A DNA stretch of 64,000 nt, taken from Scyliorhinus canicula. Taxonomy: Eukaryota. This document shows positions 2,684 to 64,000 of the stretch, piece by piece. The translations under genes and the position numbers were made by a program. The notes below the pieces were generated by a model, which had not been told where the DNA came from, made no database searches, and worked only from the letters and a program-made list of their open reading frames with translations. Numbering within the stretch: position 1 is the first letter of the stretch; the number at the start of each line of letters is the position of its first letter. The DNA lies in NCBI RefSeq assembly GCF_902713615.1, contig NC_052159.1, positions 109,545,877-109,609,876 on the forward strand, read 5' to 3'.

Positions 2684-4020
2684 GCTCCAAGTCCCATAAC
2701 CACAGGATTGGCACTTCATTTTGGATGCTTCCAACATGAGTTACAAGAACAAAATAATCTTTCCCTCATCATCGTAGATTCTCACACTCAAGTGTGCGGA
2801 CATTGTAATCAGAAAACCAGGGGACACGCAGATTGAAACTTTTATTCCTGCAGAAGTTTTCACAAATCTATCTCACACCTGGGACTGTTCGGGTTCATTG
2901 CAAAGGCGGATCACTGAGGGAACAATGGATGCCATTTGCGCCTTGATAAGCATACCCCTCAAGCAGAGTGAGAGGATCAGTCCAGACAATGGCTTCCCCG
3001 CACAAGATCTGTAACATGGATGGCAATTCTTTCGAAAGCTAATAGCTGGGACGTTATCAGTCCTGAAACTAGAGTTGGGCCCAGAGACCAGACAAACATT
3101 CCTTTTGAAATCATTGTGGAGACAGAAGGTCGCATAACTCGAGTGACCATTTTAAAATCCCTATATTTTTTTGAGAACTGAGAAACCCTCAGTCTGCTTA
3201 TCTAATGCTAATTGGAAAGAGCTCCAGCAAATCTCCCTGCTGACCAAGCAGCTGTCCACTATCTTTCAACTCCATGAAGCCTGATTGATTTTAAAAGTCT
3301 CTGTTCATTGCCTGCCAAGAGGTCTAAGCACTGAAATCAACATAAGTGCTTCATCAACATTTGTTTGAAGAACTTTTGAGCGGCTCTCTCCAACCAGGGA
3401 CTCACCAACTCTGAACACTGATACAAGCAAACTTTAACTTTCCAAACTCTGGAAATCATGTGAACTAATATTCATTTCTGCGGCTCTTTTGATACTGTTA
3501 TTCATTATTGTAAAACTCCCCCTCTTCCATCTTCCTTACTGTATGTGTCTGTGCAATTCACACCTCCGCGTTTGCATGTGAAGTAAACTAACCTTCTGAA
3601 TTAATCCTAAAGAAAGTTTGCTCTGTGACACTTATAAAATTAGACCACATGAACTGAGGGTTTGGGAAAAGGCGTCACATTCTACTTTAAATATAATTCA
3701 TAAATATCCTTGCTTAGGGATAGATGGGGAGAGGATAAAGAAGCCAGTTTTGCTTCACTCCTGTCCGTAACAAACTGTGAATTAAATCTCTTCCTAGCCA
3801 TCACTACTTCAGTGGGTATAACCTATTGGAATAAAGAGCCTTGGCCGACTACAGGTGCGGGCTCAGACTATGCCCTGCTCCCATATCTCCAGGGAAGACC
3901 CAGAAACTTTGGGCAAAATAGGATGCTATGCCAGATCTATGCCATGGCAAAATGCCAGTGGCAGTATTAAAAGGACCTTGGGCCTCGGAATAGGAAGACA
4001 ATTCTCAGCATCACCACATT

Positions 4021-10124: not shown

Positions 10125-13100
10125 GGGCAGGATTCTCTGATCCTGAGGCTAAGTGTTGCCACAGTCGTAAACACCATCGCGTTTCTCGACGGCGTCAACA
10201 TGCCCTCAGGAGCAGTGATTCTGACCCCTCCAGGGGGCCAGCACGGCACTGGAGTGACCCACGCTGCTCCAGCTGCCGATCCCGGCGTCAGATGGGTGCC
10301 GCGGGCTTTGCGCATGCGCAGTGGGACAGGCGCGACTGCCGTGTGATTCACTATCAATTACGACAAGACGAGTGTAATCAAGGCTTCATTACACAGAGAT
10401 GTGTAGCCTCCCACAGCTGCTGCCGAAATGGCTGCAGCTTGGAGAACCCATACATTTATACTCCGTCTCCTGGGCGGAGCCAGCAGGCAGGTATCTACCC
10501 CCGTACCTGTAGTACAGGAACCTTACCGTAATGCCAATATGTACAATATAATGTAAGTGGTGACTACCACAGTCACCCGCTGTTAAAAAAGAGTCCAGCG
10601 GGGGTGGTGGAAGACTATTTACATGCAGATGTTCAACATTTTAGGAAAAGTTTACAAATTCAGACGATCGGGTGCCTTGCTCCTTTGTTGCGAGCGCCGC
10701 AGTCCTGGTGGCGATGCAGGTGTCGGTTCGGTCGGCGGTGATTCCGGGAGCGTGTCGACCTCATCTTCATCCCTGGGTGGGGCCAACGGGAGGACGGATC
10801 GTCCTGGAGCGGGGGCTTGGTGAGATGTGCTGGGGGGAGGGAGGGTGGCGCCGGGGCGGGAGGGGGTGGACCCAACTGGGGCCAGGTCCCTGAGGGAGAC
10901 TGTGTCTTGGCGGCCGATGGGGTTCGCATGAAGTAGCTGTACCCTCTTGACCAACGGGTCCGCCTTGTGGAGCCGTACGTGCTTGCGGAGGAGAACGGGA
11001 CCCGGAGCTGCCAGCCATGTTGGGAGCGAAACCCCGGAGATGGATTTCCTGGGGAAGGCAAAGAGACGTTCATGGAGGGTTTCGTTAGTCGCAGTGCAAA
11101 GGAGCGACCGAATGGAGTGGAGGGCGTCGGGGAGAACCTCCTGCCAGCGGGAGGCTGGGAGATTCCGGGACCGTAGGGCCAGCTGGACGGCCTTTCAGAC
11201 CGTCTCATTCTCCTGCTCCATCTGCCCGTTTCCCCGGGGGTTGTAGCTGGTCATCCTGCTCGAGGCAATGCCCCTGTTGAGCAGGTACTGGCGCAGCTTA
11301 TCGCTCATAAATAAGGATCCCTGGTCGCTGTGGACATAGGCGGGGAAACCGAACAGAGTGAAGATGGTGTTGAGGGCTTTGATGACTGTGGCAGACGTCA
11401 TATAGGGACATGGGACGACGAAGGGGAATCTGGAGTATTCGTCGACCACATTAAGAAAGTATGTGTTTCGGTCGCTGGAGGGGAGGGGCGCCTTGAAATT
11501 CACGCTGAGGAGTTCAAAGGGGGGGGGGGGGGGAGGCCTTCACCAGGTGCGCTCGGTCTTGCCGGTAGAAGTGCGGTTTACACTCCGCGCAGACCTGGCA
11601 GTCTCTGGTGATAGCCCTGACTTCCTCGATGGAATAGAGCAGATTGCGGGCCTTTACAAAGTGAAACAAACGGGTGACCCCTGGGCGACAGAGATCGACG
11701 TGCAGGGTCCGGAGTTGGTCCACTTGTGCGCTGGCACATGTACCTCGGGATAGGACATCGGGGGGGCTCATTGAGCTTACCGGGGCGATACAAAATCTCA
11801 TAATTGTAGATGGAGAGCTCGATCCTCCACCTCAAGATCTTATCATTTTTGGTCTTGCCCCTTTGTGTATTGTTGGTCAGTTAGGAGAGGGAATCTCCTG
11901 CCGGCCAGGTAATGACTCCAGTGTCGCACAGCTTCTACTATGACTTGGGCCTCATTCTCGATGGAGGAGTGCCGAATTTCGGGGGTATGAAGGGTGCATG
12001 AAAACAATGCCACGGGCCTGCCTCTGATGCATCGCTCTCGACTTGGAAGGGGAGCGTCTCGTCGACCGCTTGCACCGCGGCCTTGGCGATGCCGGCCTCG
12101 ATACGGTTAAAGGCCTGGTGGTCCTCGGCCATCAGTGCGAAAACTGTGGAGTGAATGAGTGGGCGGGCCTTGTCCGGATAGTTAGGGACCCTTTGGGCGT
12201 AGTACGAGAAGAACCCCAGGCATTGTTTGAGGGCCTTGGGGCAGTGGGGAAGGGGGGAGTTCCATGAGGGGGCGCTTGCGATCAGGGTCGGGCCCTAGAA
12301 CTCCATTTAAACCACATAGCCGAGGATGGCTAATTGGTTAGTGCTGAAGACACACTTCTCCTTGTTGTAGGTTAAGTTAAGTAGTTTGGCGGTGTGGAGG
12401 ATTTGGAAGGTTAGCGTCGTGGTCCTGCTGGTCGTGGCCGCAGATGGTGATGTTATCCAGGTACGGGAAGGTGGCCCGCAGTCCGTGCCGGTCAACCATT
12501 GGGTCCATCTCCCGTTGGAAGACCAAGACCCTGTTAGTGACGCCAAATGGGACACTAAGGAAGTGGCAAAGGCGGCCGTCTGCTTCAAACGCGGCGCATG
12601 GGCGGTTCGCCTTGCAAATGGGGAGCTGGTGGTAGGCAGATTTCAGGTCCACTGTCAAGAAGACCCGGTACTGTGCAATCTGATTGACCATATCAGATAT
12701 GCGTGGAAGGGGTACACGTCGAGCTGCGTGTGCCGATTGATGGTCTGACTGTAGTTAATGACCATCCTTTCTGTCTCCCCAATTTTCACAGCTACCACTT
12801 GAGCTCTCCAGCGGCTGTTGCTGGCCTCGATAATGCCTTCCCGTAGCAGCCGCTGGACCTCAGACCTGATGAAGGTCCTGTCCTGGGCACTGACTGTATC
12901 GTCTGCTCCTGGTGGCGACGGGTTTGCAATCCTGGGTGAGGTTCGCAAACAGAGAAGGCGTGTCGATCTTAAGGGTCTTGAGACCGCAGACAATAAGGGG
13001 TGGTAGGGATCCGGCAAATTTCAGGGTTAGGCTCTGGAGGTTGCACTGGAAGTCCAGGCCGAGTAGCAAGGCAGCGCAGAGGTTGGGTAGGCCGTAGAGC

Positions 13101-14973
13101 CGGAAGCCGCTGACCTCTACACCCTGGATGGTGAGGGTGGTGGTGCAGTACCCCGGATCGCCATGGAGTGTGATCCGGAGGCCAGGGAGATTTTCTGGTT
13201 AATGGGGTGTACCGTGAGGGAGCAGCGCCTTACCGTATCGGTGTGGATGAAGCTCTCAGTGCTCCCAGAGTCCAGAAGGCATGATGTCTCTTGCCCATCA
13301 ACCTTTATTGTCGTTGACGCGGTCGCGAGGTTGTGCAGTCGGGACTGGTCGATCGTGATGGAGGCGAGTCGTGGCTGGTGTTGGAAGGCCCCTGGCTGGA
13401 CGGCGGTGGTTGCAGGCAGTGAGTGGCCCGATGAGGTGCCCGACGAGCAGGGGTCCTGGGTCGGGGAAGATGGCGGCACCCACGGGGCGCACGTGGCGGG
13501 TGCCATTGAAGATGGTGAAGTCCACGGGCCGCACGTGCCCTGAGGCAAACAAGATGGCGGCACCCACAGGCCGCACGTGTTGTGAGACGAGCAAGATGAC
13601 GGCGCCCATGGGCCGCACGTGGTCTGAGGCGAGGAAGATGGCTGCGCCCACGGGTCGCATGTGGGAGGTGCAGGGACAATAGCGGCGATCGAGCGGACCT
13701 GTTCGCTGGCGGGGTCCATGATGCCCAGGAGGGGTGGGCCGTGCAGTCGGGGGCGTGCGCCTGTACATTGCGGGAGGCAACTATTAGTGAGATCGCGAGT
13801 TTCTTGGTCGCCGCGAGGTCGAGGGTAGCCCCTTCTAAGAGGCGCTGGGGGATGTAAGCTGACCTTTTGCCTGTAACGAAAGCGTCTCTAATTAGAAGTT
13901 CAGAATGTTCAACGGCCGAAACGGCCTGGCAATCGCAGTCCCTCGCCAGGGCATGCCAGAAATCTTCCACGGACTCACTTGATGCCGCGTGGACAGGAGG
14001 TGCCTGGCGTAGATTTTGTTGGGTCTGCTGAGTGTAGTTCTCCTTCAGTAGCGCCATGGCCTCAGCGTAGGTAGGTGCATCCCGGATGAGGGGAAAGATA
14101 TCAGAGCTCAGCCGCGTGTACAGGATCTGGAGCTTCTGTCCCTCTGAGGGTGGTTCTGTCGCACATCCGATGTAGGCTTCGAAGCAAGCTAGCCAATGTG
14201 CGAAGGCCGACTTGGCGTTATCTGCTTGAGGGGGCAGCTGCAGGCGATCAGGCTTGATGCGGAGATCCATCATTGTAAAATCTCTGCGTAATAAATTAAT
14301 GTACTATCAATTACGACGAGACAAGAGTAGAGTGTAATCGAGGCTTTATTGGGCAGAGATGTGTAGCCTCCCACTGCTGCTGCTGAAATGGCTGCAGCTC
14401 GGAGAGCCCACACATTTATACTCCGCCTACTGGACGGAGCCAACAGGCAAGGATCTACCCCGTACCTGTAGTATAGGAGCCTTACCGTAATACAACAGTA
14501 GTGACTAACACACCACGCATGCGCGGTGGCTCCGTTCTCCACGCCGGCCCTGACACAAGATGGCATAGGGCTACAGGGGCCGGCACGGAACAAAAGAGGC
14601 ACCCAGTCCGAGAGGCCAGCCTGCTGATTGGTAGGCCCCGATCGCGGCCAGGCCACAGCGGAGGCCCCCCCTGGGGTCGGAGATCCCTCCCCCACAAAAA
14701 GGCCTCCCCCAGATGCATCCATGTCAATGTTCCGTGGGGTAAGAGCAGGTGTGGACTGCGCCTGCGGGGCTCAGCTTTTGTGCGTGACCGCTCGGCCCAT
14801 CCTGGGCCGAGAATCGCCGGGGGAGCCCCATAGAGCTGCCCCCGACTAGCCCCGCCGATGCCAATGGCGCCGGTTCTCTGTGCTCCGGAGAATCAGCGGA
14901 CCGGCATCTGGGCAGCGTGGCGCGATTCGCGTCGGTCCCGCCGATTCTCCGGCCTGGTGTGAGAATCCCGCCC
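10125..14973. mobile_element. PIF/Harbinger MITE (TSD ATA) split by a Gypsy insertion
   Basis: ATA-GGGCAGGATTCTC ... GAGAATCCCGCCC-ATA. Confidence 0.8.
10344..14512 (-). mobile_element. Ty3/Gypsy LTR retrotransposon A, full-length but frameshifted (LTRs 10344-10571 and 14297-14512)
   Basis: gag MDLRIKPDRL.. (14273), PR LLDSGS, RT VDLKSAYHQ..PFGV..YLDN, RNase H ESDAS, IN CQVC..FKAPLP..HSDQG..GNGQME. Flanks CCGTG/CCACG. Confidence 0.9.
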
Positions 14974-55119: not shown

Positions 55120-55340
55120 GACCACTATCATTACGGTGCCAAAGATGAAGCAGGCAACGTGCCTCAATGTCTACCGCCTGGTGACCTCGACATCTATCAT
55201 TGTGAAGTTTTTTGAGAGTTGATCATGAGACACATCAACTCCATACTTCCAGAATGCCTTGATCTATTGCACTTCACATACCACTTCAACCGGTCCACAG
55301 CAGACGCTATCTCCCTGGCCCTACACTCATCCCTGGAGCT
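55120..55340 (+). mobile_element. Rex1/Babar-type LINE RT fragment; target of the ERV insertion
   Basis: Decayed translation TIITVPK..TCLNVYRLV.TSIIVKFFE / LDLLHFTYHFNRSTADAISLALHSSLE, cut exactly at the LTR start. Confidence 0.75.
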
Positions 55341-56924
55341 TGTTTTTCTAATTTCACCTATATGTTTTAGAATTCCCCTTATACCACAGACCTTAAGGGC
55401 CAATATTCTAAAACGGCGAACAGGGAACTCCCTCCCTGACTCCAGTACAGGCCTCTGTGAGTGCTATTCGGGTCAAACTCTCCTTTCAAGTTATCCCCCG
55501 GTATACTCATACCTTCACTGAAGAATTTTACTTACTTACCCCTTAATCGCATCGATGTCCCGGGTCCTGCGTTCTTAAGGAAGTGAAGTAAGCTAATAAC
55601 CACTTTTTCAGGTTAAATTATTTTATTATTAACATACTCTTTTTTATCTCATTAAATTAAAAACATTATTTACTTTTTGATGTTGTCTGGTTGGTTGGTG
55701 AGGCCTTCAGACTCTCTCTCTCTCTCTTTCACTTTCAAGTCTCCTGGTCATCTCTCCTGGTGCAGTTTTCTCTTTTTCTCCTCTTCTTCCTTCATTGGCT
55801 GCTGGGCCGCTTCTCTCCTGGGCCTTCCCGTTCCTGGGCCGCTGCTCCTGCTGTCCTTCTTCCTTCTTCGGGTGCCGCTGGTGTTCTGCTCCTGGTGTTC
55901 TGTGGCGTGGTTCCTTTTGTGCCTCTCTTCTTGCCTCATGGGGAGAGAGGAGGAGTCTGAAGCCCGCGCTGTTTTCTTTGTTCCAGCTGTTCTGGAAGCC
56001 CGCGCTGGCTGATCTCTGGCTCGAGATCGGGACCTCCGATAAGGATCGGACTTCGGGTCTTAAAGGGGCAGTCCATCACCATTTTCCAACAACACAAAGA
56101 GATTTTTAAAAACTTTTTTCTTTTGCCTTTCTCCTGCTGCAGGTTGTAATAACCATTCTGATAGACTGAAATTGCTGCCCACAGTTTCTGTGCCCTTCAG
56201 CTGCCACCAACCTCTTGTGGGATCTTTCCCTGCACTCTCCCCGATCAGATGTTGGCAGACCTCTATGTTTCAAATGACACATTCTGTATTTTCCAGAACA
56301 CCCCGTCTTGACATTTGAAACATTACTATAATTTGGTTTATTGTCCCCCCCATCCAATTGTACTAACCTACATCCCTGATCATTGTCATTTGTATGCATA
56401 TCACAGACCAGTGTCAATACGAGTCTTGTTTTCCGTTCCAGATTGGAATGTGGTAATTGTGATATCTTGTACCCCCCACTGATCCCCTAGTCTTATTAAT
56501 TTAAAATGTTCAATTGATCCTGCTTGTATTCCTAACTTCCCCATTAATGTCTAACATTGTCGTGAATCATGTAAGTCTGCCAACCCCTGGTTTACATGAG
56601 AGAACATCTTTCTGACAACGTGTATATTTTTCATTTCAGCATTTACAAAACCGCATTGAACCGTCTCTTTTTTTTTCTTCCCAAACAAATTCTCCCTATT
56701 GTTCTATACATAGTAAAATTTTTATCTTATCTTAACACCTTATTCATTACCTAACCAATAGACTGTGTGTTACACTTTACATATTTTCAACTGTTAACAA
56801 TTTAATATCAATATCGAAACATCGCTTCTTGGCTTTTGGAACAATCATTATTACATACTAAACTAACCCTCTATTAAAACATTCACAGTTTAGAAATGCG
56901 GATCAAGTTATTTAACGACACACA
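55341..56924 (-). repeat. 3' LTR of the foamy-like ERV (~1584 bp, TG...CA)
   Basis: 55341-55678 equals 63662-64000 except for a 1-nt indel. The U3 boundary is inferred from the minus-strand PPT GAGAAGGGGGG-TA-TGTGTG at 56937-56919. Minus-strand AATAAA at 55627-55622. Confidence 0.75.
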
Positions 56925-56937
56925 TACCCCCCTTCTC
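56925..56937 (-). promoter_or_regulatory. Polypurine tract of the ERV
   Basis: Minus strand GAGAAGGGGGG-TA followed by TG, downstream of pol. Confidence 0.7.
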
Positions 56938-57369
56938 ATATATATACAACAGTCCCTATCAATTTACATGAAAATAAAAAAAATTTTCTTATCAACGATT
57001 ATAGCTCTTCAATGCAATATTGTTTTGTTGCATTGGTAACAATTTTCCCGCCGTAGTATCAAGCTACTGAAATTCTTAACCTATTATCATTGATCATATT
57101 GGGGTTCCTCGTCAGTCGCTGCTATCTGCTGCCGAGACCTTAATGATTCCACTGCGTAGTACATACCCCATGGAGACCACAGATCATCCATCAACTAATG
57201 TCCAGTTAGAGATGTCTGACCGGGGGTTTCACTGTCCAGTTATAATTTGATATTCTAATTTGTTTCTAACCCGTAAAGTTTTCCTCCGGGTTCTGTCATT
57301 TAATTCCCTCAAATTTGTAGCCAATTATATCATTAGTTTCCCCCCAATCCTGTCGAACAGATTCTTCTC

Positions 57370-57451
57370 TGGAGTGTAGTTCTCTTCCTTCTTGCGAACT
57401 GGTTTGTTATTGGAGTGTAGTTCTCTTCCTTCTTGCGACCTGGTTTGTTAT
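57370..57451. repeat. 41-bp tandem duplication between pol and the 3' LTR
   Basis: TGGAGTGTAGTTCTCTTCCTTCTTGCGA(A/C)CTGGTTTGTTAT twice, one mismatch. Confidence 0.95.
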
Positions 57452-57657
57452 TAATTTTTTCCACCTGAAAAAGCAAATGAACAGATCAAGGGTGGAGAGG
57501 GCCCTATTCTTTAATTCGGATTATCCCAGAAGTGCCCTCTCCAGGACTTCCGGATTCCTTTTGCCATCATTTCTTTTTGAACTGGTTTATATTCCATATC
57601 CTTGATGTAGTCAAGCCTCCTTCTGTCATTGCACCCCTGAGTGAGATTCGAAGAATC

Positions 57658-60600
57658 TCAAACTCCTCTGATGCTCACTGGGTCGTGTGTTTCAAGCGTG
57701 ACACAATTTCTTTTGCTCCAGACACCATGCTTCTCTAATTCAATTGTATGTGTACCCAGAATCTGAACAATCTTGTCTTTACATTTTACAGTCTCGCGAA
57801 TGATTTCCCCCGCAGTCTTAGTTGGTAACTTCACCCAAACTTCGTCTCCTACTTGATAATTCCCAGATTCACTTGGGTCTCCTTGTCCCTGGGGGACAGA
57901 GGTTCCAAGATTGCTATTAAGATCAAATACTATTCTTTCAATGTCTTTATCCCAGCCTTTATTATTCTGATTCTTTATGATCCAATCCTTTACTTTTCTT
58001 ACAGACCTCTCAGCCATTCCATTACTCTCAGGTGCATATTTCACGGCCCAATTGATTGTTATTCCTCTGTCAGCACAAAAGTTAATAACAGTATTGTTTC
58101 TAAAGTGTGGCGCGTTGTCCATTCGGATCGATTCTGGTCTACCTCTGGAGGTCATCATTTCTGCCAATACCCTTTTGGTTGTGGCTCCATTTGCTTTGCT
58201 GGTTGCTCTAAGGTCAATTTCTCCCGTGCAGCTATCAGCTTTGACTAAAAAATACAAATTACCTTTGCTGCTTCTGGGAAAAAGTGGTCCTGCATAATCT
58301 AATGACCATTCCTGCATCGGTTTCTCAGTTTTTATGCTCCCATATGTTTTATTTCCTCTCTGTCCTCCACAGGCCATACATCTCTCACATTTTCTCCTTA
58401 CTGCAGTTAAATGTTGTCTCCAATAGGCTATTTTAAGTCCCAACTTCTTCAACTCCCTTGCGACTACAACATGACCCCCATGTCCCGTGGCTTCATGTAC
58501 TTGCTTAATTATCATTTGATGGTCGGCTGCTGAGTTCCCAAGAGTCCCCAAGATTATTGTCCTAAGTCTGGCTAATTCATCCACTTCCTGATTCCCCTTA
58601 CACAGTTCCCCAATTCCTTTTGTGTGTGCTTTTTGATGAATTGTCTGGATCTCCATATCGGCTAAAATTTTATCTATCTCTTCCCACTGTTCTTTCTGTT
58701 CCAGTAGTTTATTTCTACCGTTCGTCCAACCGTTTAGTTTCCAAAACTCCAAATCTTTCTCCAATCCTTGCTGCACGAAAAAGCTATCGGTTACAACGGT
58801 AACTTCCTGCAGCTTTCGCTGGTGACACTCCTTTAACCCTTGCAATACTCCCTCTACCTCAGCTGTCTGAGCTGATCCAATGATTATTCCCTGTTCCTCC
58901 ACTACTATGTTTCCTGAATTTTTTAAAATGAATGCCCATCTGGCTTGTTCTTCGTCCTTCTTGACTTTACTACCATCAGTATATAATACCCAAGCATTCA
59001 CCAACTCCGTTTTACTAACTGGCTCATCAAGTTTCTGTCCCTTTTGAATGTTATGAACAAACATTAAGTCAGGGTTTAGAAGAATGGTTTCCCATCTTTC
59101 CCATCGAGCTGTATTCGCGCCTTGCTGGCAAATCTGTCTCTTGGTTAGCTCCTTTAACTCCAAAAACTCAGTTGTGACATAAATTTTCTTACCACCCGAC
59201 AAGTTTTCTATCTCTGCTATTCTCTTTGTTATAGCTGCTAGACATTTCTCGATGTTTGAAAACTTTTGTTCAGCTCTCGACCAGTTTCCTGTCAGATGTT
59301 TGATAGGTGTCTGATTGCTAAGATTAGCAAGTACCATACCATATCCATTTTTATATATGTCTAATTTAATGCTTAAATCATCCTCTTCTTGTCTCCCAAC
59401 TAATGACCCCGATATCGCAATTGCTGTCTTTAACTGATCTAACCCTCTCTGGGCCTCGCTGGTCCAAATAAAATCCCCTTTCAAGGTTTGATAAATGGCT
59501 TTAGCATAGAGACTGAAGTCCTTCACTACTGGCCTTAGATATCCCAACATTCCCATTATTTTTTGAACCCCTTTTTTCGAAACCGGCGCAGTAATTTCAG
59601 CTATCTTCTTCCTCATTTCAATACTGGCCTCTCTACCTTCCTTCGATACTGAATAACCCAAATAGTTGACTTCGCTTCTCCCAATTTGACATTTCTTTAG
59701 CCCTATTTTAAAGCCTGCTTCACCAAGTGTCTTAATGATCCTGGCCACTCTTTCCACATGTTTGTCCTGATCGTCATCTCCAATTAATATATCATCGATA
59801 TATACTAAGGCCAAATCATCTTGAATCAGCTCCCTGATTATTGCCTGAAAGTGATTTGGAGAATTAACATATCCCTGTGGAAGTCTACAATATACATAAT
59901 GCTTAGTTCCAACGGTGAATGCTGTTTTTTCCCTGCTGTCTGGGTCTAATGGAACACTCCAGAATCCATTCGCCAAATCTATACTAGTTAAGTAAGTTTT
60001 TCCCGCGACTTGCTCTAAGGTAGCTTGTGGATTTATTAAATATCTCTTGTCCTTCTTTGTGACTTTATTTAAAGCTTTGTAATTTGTTACCATTCTAAAT
60101 GTACCATCTGGTTTTCTTACTACCTGAAGTGGACTATTTGTTGAGGCATATGTGACCCCTTGAATAATCCCCTGCTGCTCCAATTCCTTGATTATTATCT
60201 CCAGCTCGCTCTTAGCTCCTCTAGGCAAAGGATACTGTTTTTGAGGTCTGTGTTGTCCCCCGTGAATTGTGTGTTGAAATTGCTGGCTAAGCAAACCTGT
60301 GTCATTCTTACCTATCGCTAGGTTTGCTCCCATCAGTACTTCTTCCATCTTCTTCCAAGCTTCGTCATTTAAAATACTTTTCTCTTTCTGTTTCCTTATT
60401 TCCTCCATGTTATCAATTGGTTTTAATATCCTTATTTTTCCAGTATCTATTTTTATTAAATCTTTCCCTGCCATCAGATTATCAGTTCCTGATATTGCCA
60501 GTAATTCTCCCAATCTAACTTCTGGTCTAATATCCTTATTCCCTAATGCTCCTTCTACTATGTAATTCTTTCCTGTCGGATTTCCAGCTTCTTCCCTTAT

Positions 60601-62946
60601 CATTGATATCTCAGCCCCTGTGTCCACTATACATCTTTCCCCCTTGTATACTACTACTAATTCTCCTTTGTCTGTTTCTGTTGTTAGATTTTGTATAGCC
60701 TGTTTAAGGGGAGAAGCCGAATCCTGTCCATATATACCGGGGCCTCCTCTGCCTCCTCCTCGGAATCCCCCTCGCGAGCGTCCCGGATACCCTTCTGATG
60801 GTTGATATCTACCTTGCTCAATCCTCCCCTGACCAGCTGCTCTTCTTCTCCTATCCTCAATGAATCTGTCTCTTTCCTCCCGACTGAGGGCTAGGAATTG
60901 TCCCCTTGGTAAATAATCTAGATTTTGTGGTGGAGGTGGCCCTTGTGATCGCAAATTATACCCATGTTGTGGCATTGCTGGTTGTGCTGGATTTTGTTCC
61001 GATTTGTCAGGTATCTGTCGGTTTGGTGGTCTAATCTGAGCATTTTGTGTTGAAACATTATTTTGGGCAGCTGCTCTTTTTTGTTCCCCTTTTGTGTGTT
61101 TATCCTTAAATGCTTTGCCTGCCAAATCAAATTTAACCAGTTCTCTTCCTATTTCTCTTCTAGAGGTCGTTAACAGTATTATTGAGAGGCTTTTTCCTCC
61201 TGGAATCTTGGGTCCTAATTCCCTCAGGAATCTGACTACATCGACCCCCTCTTCCTTATTAACCTCATATATTCGGTCGATATATGGTGTGAGGTGTTCC
61301 CCTGCATATGCTGCCTCTGTCATCTCTTTCATTAAATTAGCTCTCTCATTTCCCAAATCTAACTCACTTATTAAATCTGAGACTTCGCCTGTAACTATTT
61401 CTCCCACTGTATGTAAATCAATTAATTTGGTGGATTCTCCTGATGCCCCCATTTTCTTCGCTAACTGTTTTAACCTCTGTGAATACTCAATTCTACTCTC
61501 CCCATGTTTCTTTGGGCCTGCTGTCTTCATTACGGCTGCTACTATTTTATACGGTACCATGCCTCCCTGTCCTTCCTCTGGACCTGGTGTAAATGACTGA
61601 ACTATTTTCTCACTTCTGGGGCATGGTGTTCTTAAAGGGGCACCTCTATCTGGGTCCCTATATTCGGAGAAATGTATCCGTCGTCGTACCGGTTCTTCCT
61701 CAAAATAGGGGGTACTATGTTGTGCAAACTCTTCCACCGATTCTATATATTCTTCAAACCTTGCACTTGGTACTTGGCTATCTCGTGGAGCATAACTTGC
61801 CCTATCCATTGGAGTAGGAGCAGTTTTTTGGGGTCTTGGACGATTCTGTATCCTTTCCTGTGGTCTTAATGCTGCTATTATCTGGCCTTGTGTTTCTGTG
61901 CTGTTCCTTACCCTACTCATGGCTCTTCCGAAACTGTCATACCCTTTGCTCATTTGCCAAATTTTAGCTTTGGGGGTAACGTTTGGTAATTCTAGTAATT
62001 TCGTAGAATCAATTTGTTGACTTCCTCCTAATATTTCTCCTATTTTAAGTCCCCTAGCTGTAACCTCTCTTTCCCATCCTTCCTGATCTCTATGGTGTAC
62101 CATTTCTGCTTCTGGATTATAAATATAATACGGTACATCCTTATTTACTGGTCGATAAGAGGAAGGTTGTTGTTGTTTCCAGTGATCGCTATAATCCCCT
62201 ATTTCTAATGGTTTAGAATTTTTTCTATTCCCTATTCCTCTCTTTTGTTTGACTATTTCCTCATTCTCGGATGAGGATGATAATTCTTCCTGTCCCATCA
62301 CAGGAGGCGCCATAATCCCAACTATGCCTTGTTCCTCTTCACTTTCTTGTGGTTCAAAGAAATGATCGATAAACGCTTCTTTCTTATGTGTGGCAGATTG
62401 CTGAGGCCAATTTTCTTCCTGAAACAGACTTGGCTCTGGGTATTGAAAATTGTATCCCGTTGGGAAATTTTCACAGGGGTCCGAATTCTCTCGGCTATCT
62501 GATTCTAGGCCTGATTCCTCGTCACTTTCCATTTCTAATGGTTCATTTTTCTGCAGTTGTTTTATATATTTGCCTACCACTTCAGAGTTACTTTTGGGTT
62601 TACTAGGGATCTGTATTATTTCTGTCCTGTTTACTCCGTCAATGATTTTAATCAGTTTGGAACACACTTTGCCCACTTGAGCAGCTGCATGCTTCTGTCT
62701 GTGTCCAAATACGATTAGTGATTCAGCTCGCTTTTCAAATGCAAACTGACAAAGTGCTTTAAGGACCCTGACTGAATCTGTATATTGCAGGGCTTTTGGC
62801 ACTCTAACAAAGAGGGAGATATCTCCGTCTGGATACATATCTCCTGTCCAGGATTTCTTTTGCTCTTTTAATTTCTTCCATTCCCTTTTCATTTCTACAT
62901 TTCTCTTGACCGTATCCCAGGGCATGAGAATTACCCTAATTGCCAT
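57658..62946 (-). CDS. gag-pol: Gag-Pro-Pol polyprotein (1762 aa): Gag ~62946-60690, PR ~60670-60440, RT ~60300-59400, tether, RNase H ~58990-58565, integrase ~58530-57658
   Basis: The ORF track starts at a GTG (62991); the first ATG is at 62946 in Kozak context AAAATGG. Motifs: PR VDTGAE (60616-60624); RT IDLANGFW (~59959-59982), LPQGYVNSP and YIDD (59791-59802); RNase H YTDGS, AQTAE, TDSFFV, GNQEVD; IN H-x4-H...CERC, LDYAGP, MDNAPHF, NGMAER. No internal stop or frameshift. Confidence 0.95.
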   Translation of the reverse strand: MAIRVILMPWDTVKRNVEMKREWKKLKEQKKSWTGDMYPDGDISLFVRVPKALQYTDSVRVLKALCQFAFEKRAESLIVFGHRQKHAAAQVGKVCSKLIKIIDGVNRTEIIQIPSKPKSNSEVVGKYIKQLQKNEPLEMESDEESGLESDSRENSDPCENFPTGYNFQYPEPSLFQEENWPQQSATHKKEAFIDHFFEPQESEEEQGIVGIMAPPVMGQEELSSSSENEEIVKQKRGIGNRKNSKPLEIGDYSDHWKQQQPSSYRPVNKDVPYYIYNPEAEMVHHRDQEGWEREVTARGLKIGEILGGSQQIDSTKLLELPNVTPKAKIWQMSKGYDSFGRAMSRVRNSTETQGQIIAALRPQERIQNRPRPQKTAPTPMDRASYAPRDSQVPSARFEEYIESVEEFAQHSTPYFEEEPVRRRIHFSEYRDPDRGAPLRTPCPRSEKIVQSFTPGPEEGQGGMVPYKIVAAVMKTAGPKKHGESRIEYSQRLKQLAKKMGASGESTKLIDLHTVGEIVTGEVSDLISELDLGNERANLMKEMTEAAYAGEHLTPYIDRIYEVNKEEGVDVVRFLRELGPKIPGGKSLSIILLTTSRREIGRELVKFDLAGKAFKDKHTKGEQKRAAAQNNVSTQNAQIRPPNRQIPDKSEQNPAQPAMPQHGYNLRSQGPPPPQNLDYLPRGQFLALSREERDRFIEDRRRRAAGQGRIEQGRYQPSEGYPGRSRGGFRGGGRGGPGIYGQDSASPLKQAIQNLTTETDKGELVVVYKGERCIVDTGAEISMIREEAGNPTGKNYIVEGALGNKDIRPEVRLGELLAISGTDNLMAGKDLIKIDTGKIRILKPIDNMEEIRKQKEKSILNDEAWKKMEEVLMGANLAIGKNDTGLLSQQFQHTIHGGQHRPQKQYPLPRGAKSELEIIIKELEQQGIIQGVTYASTNSPLQVVRKPDGTFRMVTNYKALNKVTKKDKRYLINPQATLEQVAGKTYLTSIDLANGFWSVPLDPDSREKTAFTVGTKHYVYCRLPQGYVNSPNHFQAIIRELIQDDLALVYIDDILIGDDDQDKHVERVARIIKTLGEAGFKIGLKKCQIGRSEVNYLGYSVSKEGREASIEMRKKIAEITAPVSKKGVQKIMGMLGYLRPVVKDFSLYAKAIYQTLKGDFIWTSEAQRGLDQLKTAIAISGSLVGRQEEDDLSIKLDIYKNGYGMVLANLSNQTPIKHLTGNWSRAEQKFSNIEKCLAAITKRIAEIENLSGGKKIYVTTEFLELKELTKRQICQQGANTARWERWETILLNPDLMFVHNIQKGQKLDEPVSKTELVNAWVLYTDGSKVKKDEEQARWAFILKNSGNIVVEEQGIIIGSAQTAEVEGVLQGLKECHQRKLQEVTVVTDSFFVQQGLEKDLEFWKLNGWTNGRNKLLEQKEQWEEIDKILADMEIQTIHQKAHTKGIGELCKGNQEVDELARLRTIILGTLGNSAADHQMIIKQVHEATGHGGHVVVARELKKLGLKIAYWRQHLTAVRRKCERCMACGGQRGNKTYGSIKTEKPMQEWSLDYAGPLFPRSSKGNLYFLVKADSCTGEIDLRATSKANGATTKRVLAEMMTSRGRPESIRMDNAPHFRNNTVINFCADRGITINWAVKYAPESNGMAERSVRKVKDWIIKNQNNKGWDKDIERIVFDLNSNLGTSVPQGQGDPSESGNYQVGDEVWVKLPTKTAGEIIRETVKCKDKIVQILGTHTIELEKHGVWSKRNCVTLETHDPVSIRGV

Positions 62947-63372: not shown

Positions 63373-63642
63373 CTAGAAACTTCTAATATTCTAGCCTTTT
63401 TGCCGGTTAGAAACTTCTAATATTCCACCCGTTTCTTGGGAACTAGAAACTTCTAATATTCTAGCCCCTACTCTGCTTAACTAGAAACTTCTAATATTCT
63501 AGCCTCGCTTTACCTAGAAACTTCTAATATTCTAGGCTTTTCTTGGGAACTAGAAACTTCTAATATTCTAGCCCCTACTCTGCTTAACTAGAAACTTCTA
63601 ATATTCTAGCCTCGCTTTACCTAGAAACTTCTAATATTCTAG
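63373..63642. repeat. Leader array: 8 x 22-nt CTAGAAACTTCTAATATTCTAG with 11-16-nt spacers
   Basis: Units start at 63373, 63407 (variant), 63443, 63481, 63514, 63550, 63588 and 63621. Units 3-5 recur as units 6-8 with a 107-bp period. Confidence 0.97.
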
Positions 63643-63661
63643 GCCTCCACGCTGGGCGCCA
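63643..63661 (-). promoter_or_regulatory. Primer-binding site, tRNA-Lys1,2-like
   Basis: Minus strand reads TGGCGCCCAGCGTGGAGGC versus the Lys1,2 PBS TGGCGCCCAACGTGGGGC (one G.U pair, one bulged A). Confidence 0.85.
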
Positions 63662-64000
63662 TGTTTTTCTAATTTCACCTATATGTTTTAGAATTCCCCT
63701 TATACCACAGACCTTAAGGGCCAATATTCTAAAACGGCGAACAGGGAACTCCCTCCCTGACTCCAGTACAGGCCTCTGTGAGTGCTATTCGGGTCAAACT
63801 CTCCTTTCAAGTTATCCCCCGGTATAACTCATACCTTCACTGAAGAATTTTACTTACTTACCCCTTAATCGCATCGATGTCCCGGGTCCTGCGTTCTTAA
63901 GGAAGTGAAGTAAGCTAATAACCACTTTTTCAGGTTAAATTATTTTATTATTAACATACTCTTTTTTATCTCATTAAATTAAAAACATTATTTACTTTTT
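63662..64000 (-). repeat. 5' LTR (U5 and part of R) of the foamy-like ERV, truncated by the window
   Basis: Direct repeat of 55341-55678; ends ...AAAAACA immediately before the PBS on the minus strand. Confidence 0.92.

What the first reader, a model, noticed from the sequence alone, without database searches (positions are those of the whole stretch)
60735..60966. Foamy chromatin-tether motif (GYNLR) and Gly/Arg boxes at the Gag C-terminus
Seen: QHGYNLRSQG (YNLR at 60949-60960), then RRRR..GRSRGGFRGGGRGG, and no CCHC knuckle. Established: prototype foamy virus Gag uses GGYNLRPR, with an arginine anchor, to bind the H2A-H2B acidic patch, and uses GR boxes instead of zinc fingers. Inference: nucleosome tethering is conserved back to cartilaginous-fish foamy-like elements.
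Basis: partly seen in the sequence, partly recalled or inferred. Interest (0 to 1): 0.7.

Follow-up and report, generated by a model that had tools for sequence, protein, structure and literature searches.

The report
Foamy nucleosome hook in shark retroelement
A young, high-copy foamy-virus-like element in a shark-type genome carries the same short capsid-protein motif (GYNLRS) that mammalian foamy viruses use to grip host nucleosomes, and it is predicted to dock on the host's histones the same way, which would extend this known trick to the fish branch of the family.

Summary
On the minus strand, GYNLRS (60963-60946), an Arg run and a Gly/Arg box end the Gag of an env-less foamy-like endogenous retroelement; there is no CCHC knuckle. 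The family has at least 150 copies, 4-bp target duplications, a tRNA-Lys primer site and a GGG|TG junction. It matches the published ERV-Spuma.0-Sca, whose paper does not analyse Gag motifs. RT groups it with fish foamy-like ERVs, next to true foamy viruses.

GYNLRS is letter-identical to the motif in one simian foamy Gag and is kept in 75 of 80 copies. Its shared changes are synonymous only. A model with the host's own H2A/H2B scored 0.70 (best control 0.00) and reproduced the prototype-foamy contacts, possibly from memory of the solved structure.

Limits: the rest of Gag shows no detectable foamy homology and QPQRYG is missing. Two teleost gene models lack the motif, and an unrelated Gypsy integrase has RYNLR, so convergence remains possible.

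Side finding: older copies end gag with TGA in frame with pol, while most young copies, this one included, have a fused Gag-Pol frame.

Verdict: a known mechanism, plausibly extended to a new branch.

The parts
60946..60963 (-). GYNLRS chromatin-binding-site-like motif (ORF residues 688-693; Y689 and R692 match PFV Y537 and R540)
   Evidence: interface residues 687-693 and 696-698 in the model
60808..60852 (-). Arg run and Gly/Gln/Arg-rich stretch (RRRRAAGQGRIEQGR)
60736..60783 (-). terminal Gly/Arg (RGG) box, likely nucleic-acid binding; deleted together with the protease in a subfamily
60727..60729 (-). gag/pol junction codon: GGA in this copy, TGA in older copies
60730..62946 (-). gag (739 codons from the first ATG); no Pfam or PDB match; helical central part in a low-confidence model
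57658..60726 (-). pol in frame with gag: protease (DTGA 60624-60613), RT (YIDD), tether RNase H, second RNase H, integrase
60700..60716 (-). candidate phase-0 splice acceptor just after the gag end (pyrimidine tract + CAG); speculative
   Evidence: no RNA joint seen
63644..63661 (-). tRNA-Lys-type primer-binding site (2 mismatches to the foamy site here, perfect in many sister copies)
63373..63648 (.). leader with 8 copies of a ~28-nt repeat at 33-38-nt spacing
63662..64000 (-). 5' LTR, 3' part (runs out of the window)
56301..57657 (-). 1.36-kb region between pol and LTR: no env frame (longest stop-free frame 62 aa); ends in polypurine tract AAGACGGGG
55341..56300 (-). 3' LTR, 960 bp, TG...CA

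Best explanation
GYNLRS ends the Gag of an env-less fish foamy-like endogenous retroelement and likely is a working counterpart of the foamy-virus chromatin-binding site, probably inherited from a common ancestor. Predicted mechanism: R692 inserts into the H2A E61/D90/E92 pocket, Y689 and L691 pack on H2A Y57/A60 and H2B Q44/V45, and S693 contacts H2A E64. Gag still bound to the viral cDNA/integrase complex would thereby hold it on chromosomes of dividing germ-line cells and bias where new copies integrate, while the Arg run and RGG box would bind nucleic acid in place of zinc knuckles. Shown: motif, position, element class, copy conservation, intact host acidic patch. Modelled: the histone contacts. 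Inferred from PFV: mitotic tethering, effect on integration, role of the GR boxes, shared ancestry.
For: Exact motif, expected 5e-5 times in this Gag. It is identical to GYNLRS in a simian foamy Gag (L221); it lies 76 residues from the Gag end against 99-111 in the 5 foamy Gags with YxLR, and a sixth has YFFR. It is the best segment in the Gag-Gag profile comparison, though weak (probability 1.5%, P 0.033). The element is foamy-like: best PDB hits are foamy PR-RT (276 bits, against 147 for Ty3 and 101 for MLV); 4-bp TSD in 9 of 9 copies with both ends found (10 tried); RT groups with fish foamy-like ERVs at 96/97. GYNLRS is kept in 75 of 80 covered loci and Y689 in 80 of 80. Variants shared by 3 or more loci are 4 synonymous/0 non-synonymous in residues 687-700, against 8/18 in the flanks (Fisher p 0.018). 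Host H2A has E56, Y57, E61, E64, D90, E91, E92. Complex model: score 0.70, best of 3 controls 0.00, runs agree in at least 65% of contacts, partner pLDDT 57; that mark was reached by 51 of 78 solved and 2 of 108 mismatched pairs. The contacts match those described for PFV (PMC9040877, section read).
Against: No binding experiment. The model may pass from memory of the solved PFV/LANA-nucleosome complexes, peptides are outside its calibration, and no anchor-mutant control was possible. The rest of Gag has no detectable homology to foamy Gag, so ancestry rests on 5-6 residues and position. QPQRYG is absent (also absent in coelacanth and tuatara elements, PMC6669660). Two teleost foamy-like gene models have no YxLR near the Gag end (the models may have cut it). 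An unrelated Gypsy Pol carries RYNLRRR at its integrase end. The selection test is small, its window was set after seeing the model, and 6 of the 80 loci were picked by the motif pattern. The fish+true-foamy RT clade has only 86/88 support and the shark branch is long.
Confidence: 0.62

Rival explanations
1. The motif does bind the acidic patch but arose independently in this lineage, as similar short anchors did in herpesvirus LANA and IE1; other fish foamy-like elements lack it.
For: Acidic-patch anchors are short and recur in unrelated viral proteins (PMC9040877). A Gypsy Pol has RYNLRRR. There is no other Gag homology. Teleost gene models lack it. Teleost foamy-like Gags are described as having GQR rather than clear GR boxes (PMC5210030).
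Against: The match covers G-Y-N-L-R-S, beyond the Y and R that are invariant among foamy viruses, some of which read YPLR or YFFR. It has the same protein, position and GR-rich context, in the clade next to foamy viruses.
Confidence: 0.25
2. The motif is a chance or vestigial word in a disordered tail; the element reaches chromatin through integrase or the basic GR boxes, and the copies are too young for their conservation to mean much.
For: Copies are 94-100% identical in DNA near the motif. Rare variants in the motif region are mostly non-synonymous (3 synonymous, 11 not), as expected after insertion. YxLR alone is not rare (0.11 expected). The model can pass by likeness.
Against: Expectation 5e-5 for a motif named beforehand. 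No shared non-synonymous change, while the flanks have 18. The motif is retained in a subfamily that lost the RGG box and protease.
Confidence: 0.13

Closest known systems
ERV-Spuma.0-Sca (Song et al. 2023, PMC10699275; parts 1-2 of 4, passages and supplement table rows seen)
   Same: Same family by LTR start motif, LTR size, gag and pol in one frame separated by a stop, and a ~1.3-kb post-pol region; the paper lists 293 elements and places them with AciFLERV/AliFLERV.
   Different: The paper's text has no 'chromatin', 'nucleosome', 'glycine' or 'stop codon'. It labels the post-pol region 'env' without an ORF or Env domain; I find no env frame there. Its pol start, about 41 codons after the gag stop, would fall behind the protease DTG. 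It does not report the fused-frame copies.
Prototype foamy virus Gag chromatin-binding site (GGYNLRPRTYQPQRYG; PDB 5MLU as cited in PMC12125541; passages seen, also PMC6042332, PMC9040877)
   Same: GYNLR core, Tyr and Arg anchor, C-terminal GR-rich context, no Cys-His box, same predicted histone contacts.
   Different: No QPQRYG and no Tyr in register with Y549; Gag otherwise unalignable; element lacks env and carries gag and pol in one frame.
Coelacanth CoeEFV, tuatara ERV-Spuma-Spu and stork ERV-Spuma-Cbo (alignment legends in PMC12125541, PMC6669660)
   Same: Endogenous foamy elements with conserved Y and R; CoeEFV and Spu also lack RYG and are high-copy.
   Different: CoeEFV is placed with tetrapod foamy viruses (PMC5512871); this element belongs to the fish foamy-like group, which is not among the taxa named in those alignment legends.
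Teleost foamy-like ERVs (AciFLERV, AliFLERV, ZFERV-2/DrFV; PMC5210030, PMC5512871, passages seen)
   Same: RT clade and motifs, tRNA-Lys primer, GGGTG junction, 4-nt TSD, no Cys-His box.
   Different: Described with env, accessory genes and separately expressed pol; the related Pols P0003, P0005 and P0008 have a Met before the protease. No chromatin-binding motif is reported for them in the passages seen.

Membership tests
Foamy-virus Gag chromatin-binding site | Invariant Tyr and Arg (YxxR) in the Gag C-terminal domain | tested here: met
   Y689/R692, GYNLRS identical to L221
Foamy-virus Gag chromatin-binding site | Arg anchor in H2A E61/D90/E92; Tyr/Leu on H2A Y57/A60 and H2B Q44/V45 | tested here: inconclusive
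   model passes (0.70 vs 0.00) with these contacts except that D90 is not listed; may be recalled from the solved complex
Foamy-virus Gag chromatin-binding site | Downstream QPQRYG reaching histone H3 | tested here: not met
   absent; also absent in CoeEFV and ERV-Spuma-Spu (PMC6669660)
Foamy-virus Gag chromatin-binding site | Nucleosome binding and mitotic chromosome tethering lost on Arg substitution | not testable with these tools
   needs bench work
Fish foamy-like ERV (FLERV) | RT groups with teleost FLERVs | tested here: met
   96/97; P0003-type Pols identified as Aci/AliFLERV-like by motif comparison; long branch, and AU does not reject shark+true foamy viruses (p 0.119)
Fish foamy-like ERV (FLERV) | tRNA-Lys primer site, GGGTG PPT/LTR junction, 4-bp TSD, dual RNase H, no Cys-His box | tested here: met
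   the window copy itself lacks a TSD
Fish foamy-like ERV (FLERV) | env gene | tested here: not met
   post-pol region 1.3-1.66 kb with longest frames 55-161 aa in the window and 9 copies; no Pfam hit; read as loss
Spumaretrovirinae proper (mammal to coelacanth clade) | Pol in its own frame with its own AUG, from a spliced mRNA | tested here: not met
   gag and pol share a frame; no Met between the gag end and the protease DTG; splicing neither shown nor excluded
Spumaretrovirinae proper (mammal to coelacanth clade) | Gag with foamy N-terminal and capsid domains | tested here: inconclusive
   no Pfam, PDB or profile match; single-sequence model pLDDT 48, no fold hit
Lokiretroviruses | RT motif RCPFG..NSP and own clade | tested here: not met
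   this RT reads RLPQGYVNSP; compared by eye with the supplement of PMC7947760; no loki sequence was in my tree

The most novel reading that the evidence does not exclude
The Gag acidic-patch tether is ancestral to the whole foamy plus fish-foamy-like clade. It has been kept by a shark element that lost env, became a germ-line retrotransposon, and then spread with a natural in-frame Gag-Pol fusion after its older form made Pol by a Gag-AUG splice or UGA readthrough. That would be a natural counterpart of the engineered PFV fusion, with hundreds of insertion sites on record.
Probability: 0.33. Interest if true: 0.68.

Novelty: new member of a known kind. Interest (0 to 1): 0.48.

Why it matters
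Foamy Gag tethering to the nucleosome acidic patch is documented from mammals to coelacanth. Finding it in the neighbouring fish clade would move its origin to the base of the foamy-like retroviruses (early Palaeozoic by the title of PMC5512871). It also supplies one of the few recognisable features in fish foamy-like Gags, which are otherwise unalignable. Because the family is young, env-less and numerous, its insertion sites allow a computational test of whether such a tether shapes germ-line integration. It is an extension of a known mechanism to a described family, not a new system. I found no paper noting the motif in a shark or ray-finned fish element. One paper on cartilaginous-fish foamy elements, recalled by DOI, was not held and could already show it.

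Tried and rejected
Gag relatives in other species: none. One hit only, a 79%-identical 52-residue match in a protein that NCBI names as small-spotted catshark. The metagenome scan gave 32 distant matches (best-segment identity mostly 20-34%), not followed. Atlas: this Gag could not be read; stored relative P0046 gave no usable hit. PDB search with the peptide found nothing. Fold of the central Gag was low confidence with no match.

My first reading of 2.3-kb LTRs was wrong: sister copies show LTRs of about 0.85-1.0 kb, and the window copy has an extra duplicate of its 3' region upstream. Foamy Env profile hits in the genome (5 matches, 4 loci; stricter first look) lie elsewhere; two sit beside RTs only 27-29% identical to this one, so they did not test the motif. 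Searching with a teleost RT returned mostly this family, and the 2 new top loci that covered the Gag end were members too. Of 4 pattern hits with other codons, none matched the element's proteins.

No structure behind the TGA (z -0.17). No RNA holder on record; contigs of guessed-RNA runs cover gag-pol unspliced and show no splice joint, which is no evidence either way. Lesbats 2017 was not held, the supplement of PMC5210030 was not searchable, and the sequence cell in the supplement of PMC10699275 was cut; these may bear on novelty and on teleost Gags. One search fetched an unrelated paper through a misremembered id. Lokiretrovirus and Gypsy identity were considered and rejected.

Full report
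Observation. The finding lies on the minus strand inside one stop-free frame, 63024-57658 (1788 aa). YNLR is at 60960-60949, preceded by G and followed by S; RRRR is at 60852-60841 and GRSRGGFRGGGRGG at 60783-60742. There is no CCHC pattern. By composition GYNLR is expected 3e-4 times in the 739-aa Gag and GYNLR[S/P] 5e-5 times, while YxLR alone is expected 0.11 times.

The element. Behind the GR box the same frame holds a DTGA protease, RT, a tether RNase H, a second RNase H and integrase. Best PDB matches are foamy PR-RT-RH (E 6e-81, 276 bits; Ty3 147, MLV 101). The LTR is 960 bp (55341-56300), preceded by AAGACGGGG|TG. Of 10 sister copies tried, 9 had both ends, and all 9 have a 4-bp target duplication. 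Paired LTRs are 97.9-100% identical. The primer site is of the foamy tRNA-Lys type, with two mismatches here and perfect in many sisters (73 genome matches, control 0; 20 inspected, all of this family or its deleted derivatives). Between pol and LTR lie 1.3-1.66 kb with no env-sized frame. The window copy has no TSD and carries a duplicate of its 3' region upstream, so it is a tandem or recombinant. The motif region has 150 scored matches of 265 candidates in the genome, at 90-100% identity. The family corresponds to ERV-Spuma.0-Sca of PMC10699275 by LTR start and layout; the only database relative of Gag is named as a catshark protein.

Placement. In an RT tree of 31 rows, the element groups with fish foamy-like Pols (96/97). 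That group joins exogenous foamy viruses at 86/88, apart from other retroviruses and Gypsy. The branch is long, and holding it with true foamy viruses is not rejected (p-AU 0.119). An earlier tree without orthoretroviruses put it at the base of foamy plus fish rows (92/92). By eye its RT shares motifs with ZFERV-2 and Aci/AliFLERV and not with lokiretroviruses (supplement of PMC7947760). [quoted passage not shown]

The motif against foamy viruses. Six exogenous foamy genomes were retrieved. Their Gags read GYNLRP (3), GYNLRS (1), RYPLRP (1) and RYFFRP (1); in the five with YxLR it lies 99-111 residues from the end, against 76 here. All continue with QPQRYG or a near variant, which this Gag lacks. 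Y537 and R540 are described as invariant, including in coelacanth, tuatara and stork elements (PMC6042332, PMC12125541, PMC6669660). RYG is missing in the coelacanth and tuatara elements too. Outside the motif no Gag homology was detectable.

Conservation in copies. Of 90 loci examined, 80 covered the motif: 75 GYNLRS, 2 GYNLQS and one each of GYDLRS, GYHLRS and GYNLWS. Changes shared by at least 3 loci were 4 synonymous and 0 non-synonymous in residues 687-700, against 8 and 18 in 111 flanking codons (p 0.018). The window was chosen after the model, 6 loci were picked by the motif pattern, and shared variants are not independent events, so this is modest support. A subfamily (8 of the 20 loci, with 2 more loci ending at the same place) has a microhomology-bounded deletion of about 360 nt that removes the last GR box and most of the protease but keeps the motif.

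Model. Host H2A and H2B were taken from the genome; the acidic-patch residues are intact. With residues 680-711 as partner (no Arg run included), the score was 0.70 in three runs, best of three controls 0.00, contact agreement at least 65% and partner pLDDT 57. That mark was reached by 51 of 78 solved and 2 of 108 mismatched pairs; peptides are outside that calibration. Converting numbers (chain 1 +12; chain 2 +26 for the literature's H2B numbering, inferred from the sequence), the contacts are: R692 with H2A E61, E92 and H2B E102/L103/H106; L691 with H2A A60, E61, E64 and H2B V45; Y689 with H2A E56, Y57, A60 and H2B Q44, V45, E110; S693 with H2A E64. This matches the PFV description (PMC9040877). 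Because the PFV complex is solved, the pass shows likeness, not binding.

Mechanism. Most likely Gag uses this motif as PFV does: it holds the cDNA-integrase complex on nucleosomes of dividing cells and biases integration, and the Arg/Gly boxes serve nucleic-acid binding. For an env-less element this would act during intracellular spread in the germ line (inference). I put working tether with shared ancestry at 0.62, working but convergent at 0.25, and non-functional at 0.13. For convergence: an unrelated Gypsy Pol ends in RYNLRRR, two teleost gene models lack YxLR near the Gag end, and PMC10699275 infers cross-class jumps for this family.

Gag-Pol arrangement. 59 of 150 scored copies have a TGA in the region; in the 23 placed it sits at the codon after the GR box. 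On an 800-nt tree of 68 loci (36 GGA with one locus fetched twice, 23 TGA, 8 deleted, 1 unread; 4 loci did not align), the divergent copies are TGA or deleted, apart from one GGA locus, while the young clade mixes GGA and TGA. GGA therefore looks derived. No Met lies between the stop and the protease DTG and no structure follows the stop. A crude scan finds a phase-0 acceptor 9 codons after the stop (among the top 3 of 115 sites; its AG|G kept in 70 of 71 matches) and a phase-0 donor after gag codon 4 (among the top 7 of 122; in 11 of 20 gag starts). No RNA joint was seen, so Pol expression in TGA copies stays unexplained. [quoted passage not shown]

Verdict. Real feature, known kind of motif, described family, new link. 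No held paper with GYNLR concerns a fish element by its listing (6 listed), and the family's paper has no such analysis. Interest 0.48.

Noticed in passing
window 60727-60729 and sister loci L032-L050, L139-L176: Gag stop (TGA) in older copies versus in-frame Gag-Pol fusion (GGA) in most young copies; no Met before the protease, so Pol expression in TGA copies is unexplained (readthrough or a splice 62934 to 60700).
   Followed up: partly
L136-L138, L140, L141, L145, L146, L148, L174, L175: Multi-copy subfamily with a ~360-nt microhomology deletion removing the last GR box and protease, fusing Gag to RT; keeps GYNLRS.
   Followed up: partly
L051, L053, L054, L058, L061-L063, L070: Short non-autonomous derivatives (LTR-PBS-leader, scraps of gag start, protease and integrase end); contigs like them are deep in guessed-RNA runs, some with a poly-T end near window 60450.
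   Followed up: partly
window 63373-63648: Leader array of 8 repeats (~28 nt, 33-38 nt spacing) with a near-palindromic core; copy number varies between copies.
   Followed up: no
L031:1622-2955 and 3328-3393: Upstream of the 5' LTR the window copy has a duplicate of its own 3' region, then a Gypsy-like scrap and a 66-bp repeat of the left flank (55274-55339); no TSD.
   Followed up: partly
L088:1415-1927: 171-aa Cys-containing frame between pol and LTR in an older copy; possible accessory-gene remnant, no Pfam hit.
   Followed up: partly
L177/L180, L186, L178, L179: Decayed elements hit by the Foamy Env profile; two have RTs 27-29% identical to this one, with a snakehead-retrovirus-like motif in L180.
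   Followed up: partly
L157 (middle): Unrelated frame reading ...AKAKSKQATKGGYNLRSQ, Lys-rich; may be chance (25 control matches for the pattern) or another acidic-patch-like motif.
   Followed up: no
P0015 residues 986-992: RYNLRRR at the integrase end of a Gypsy Pol, a candidate independent acidic-patch anchor.
   Followed up: no
window 11015-14303, minus strand: Decayed Gypsy-type gag-pol element.
   Followed up: no
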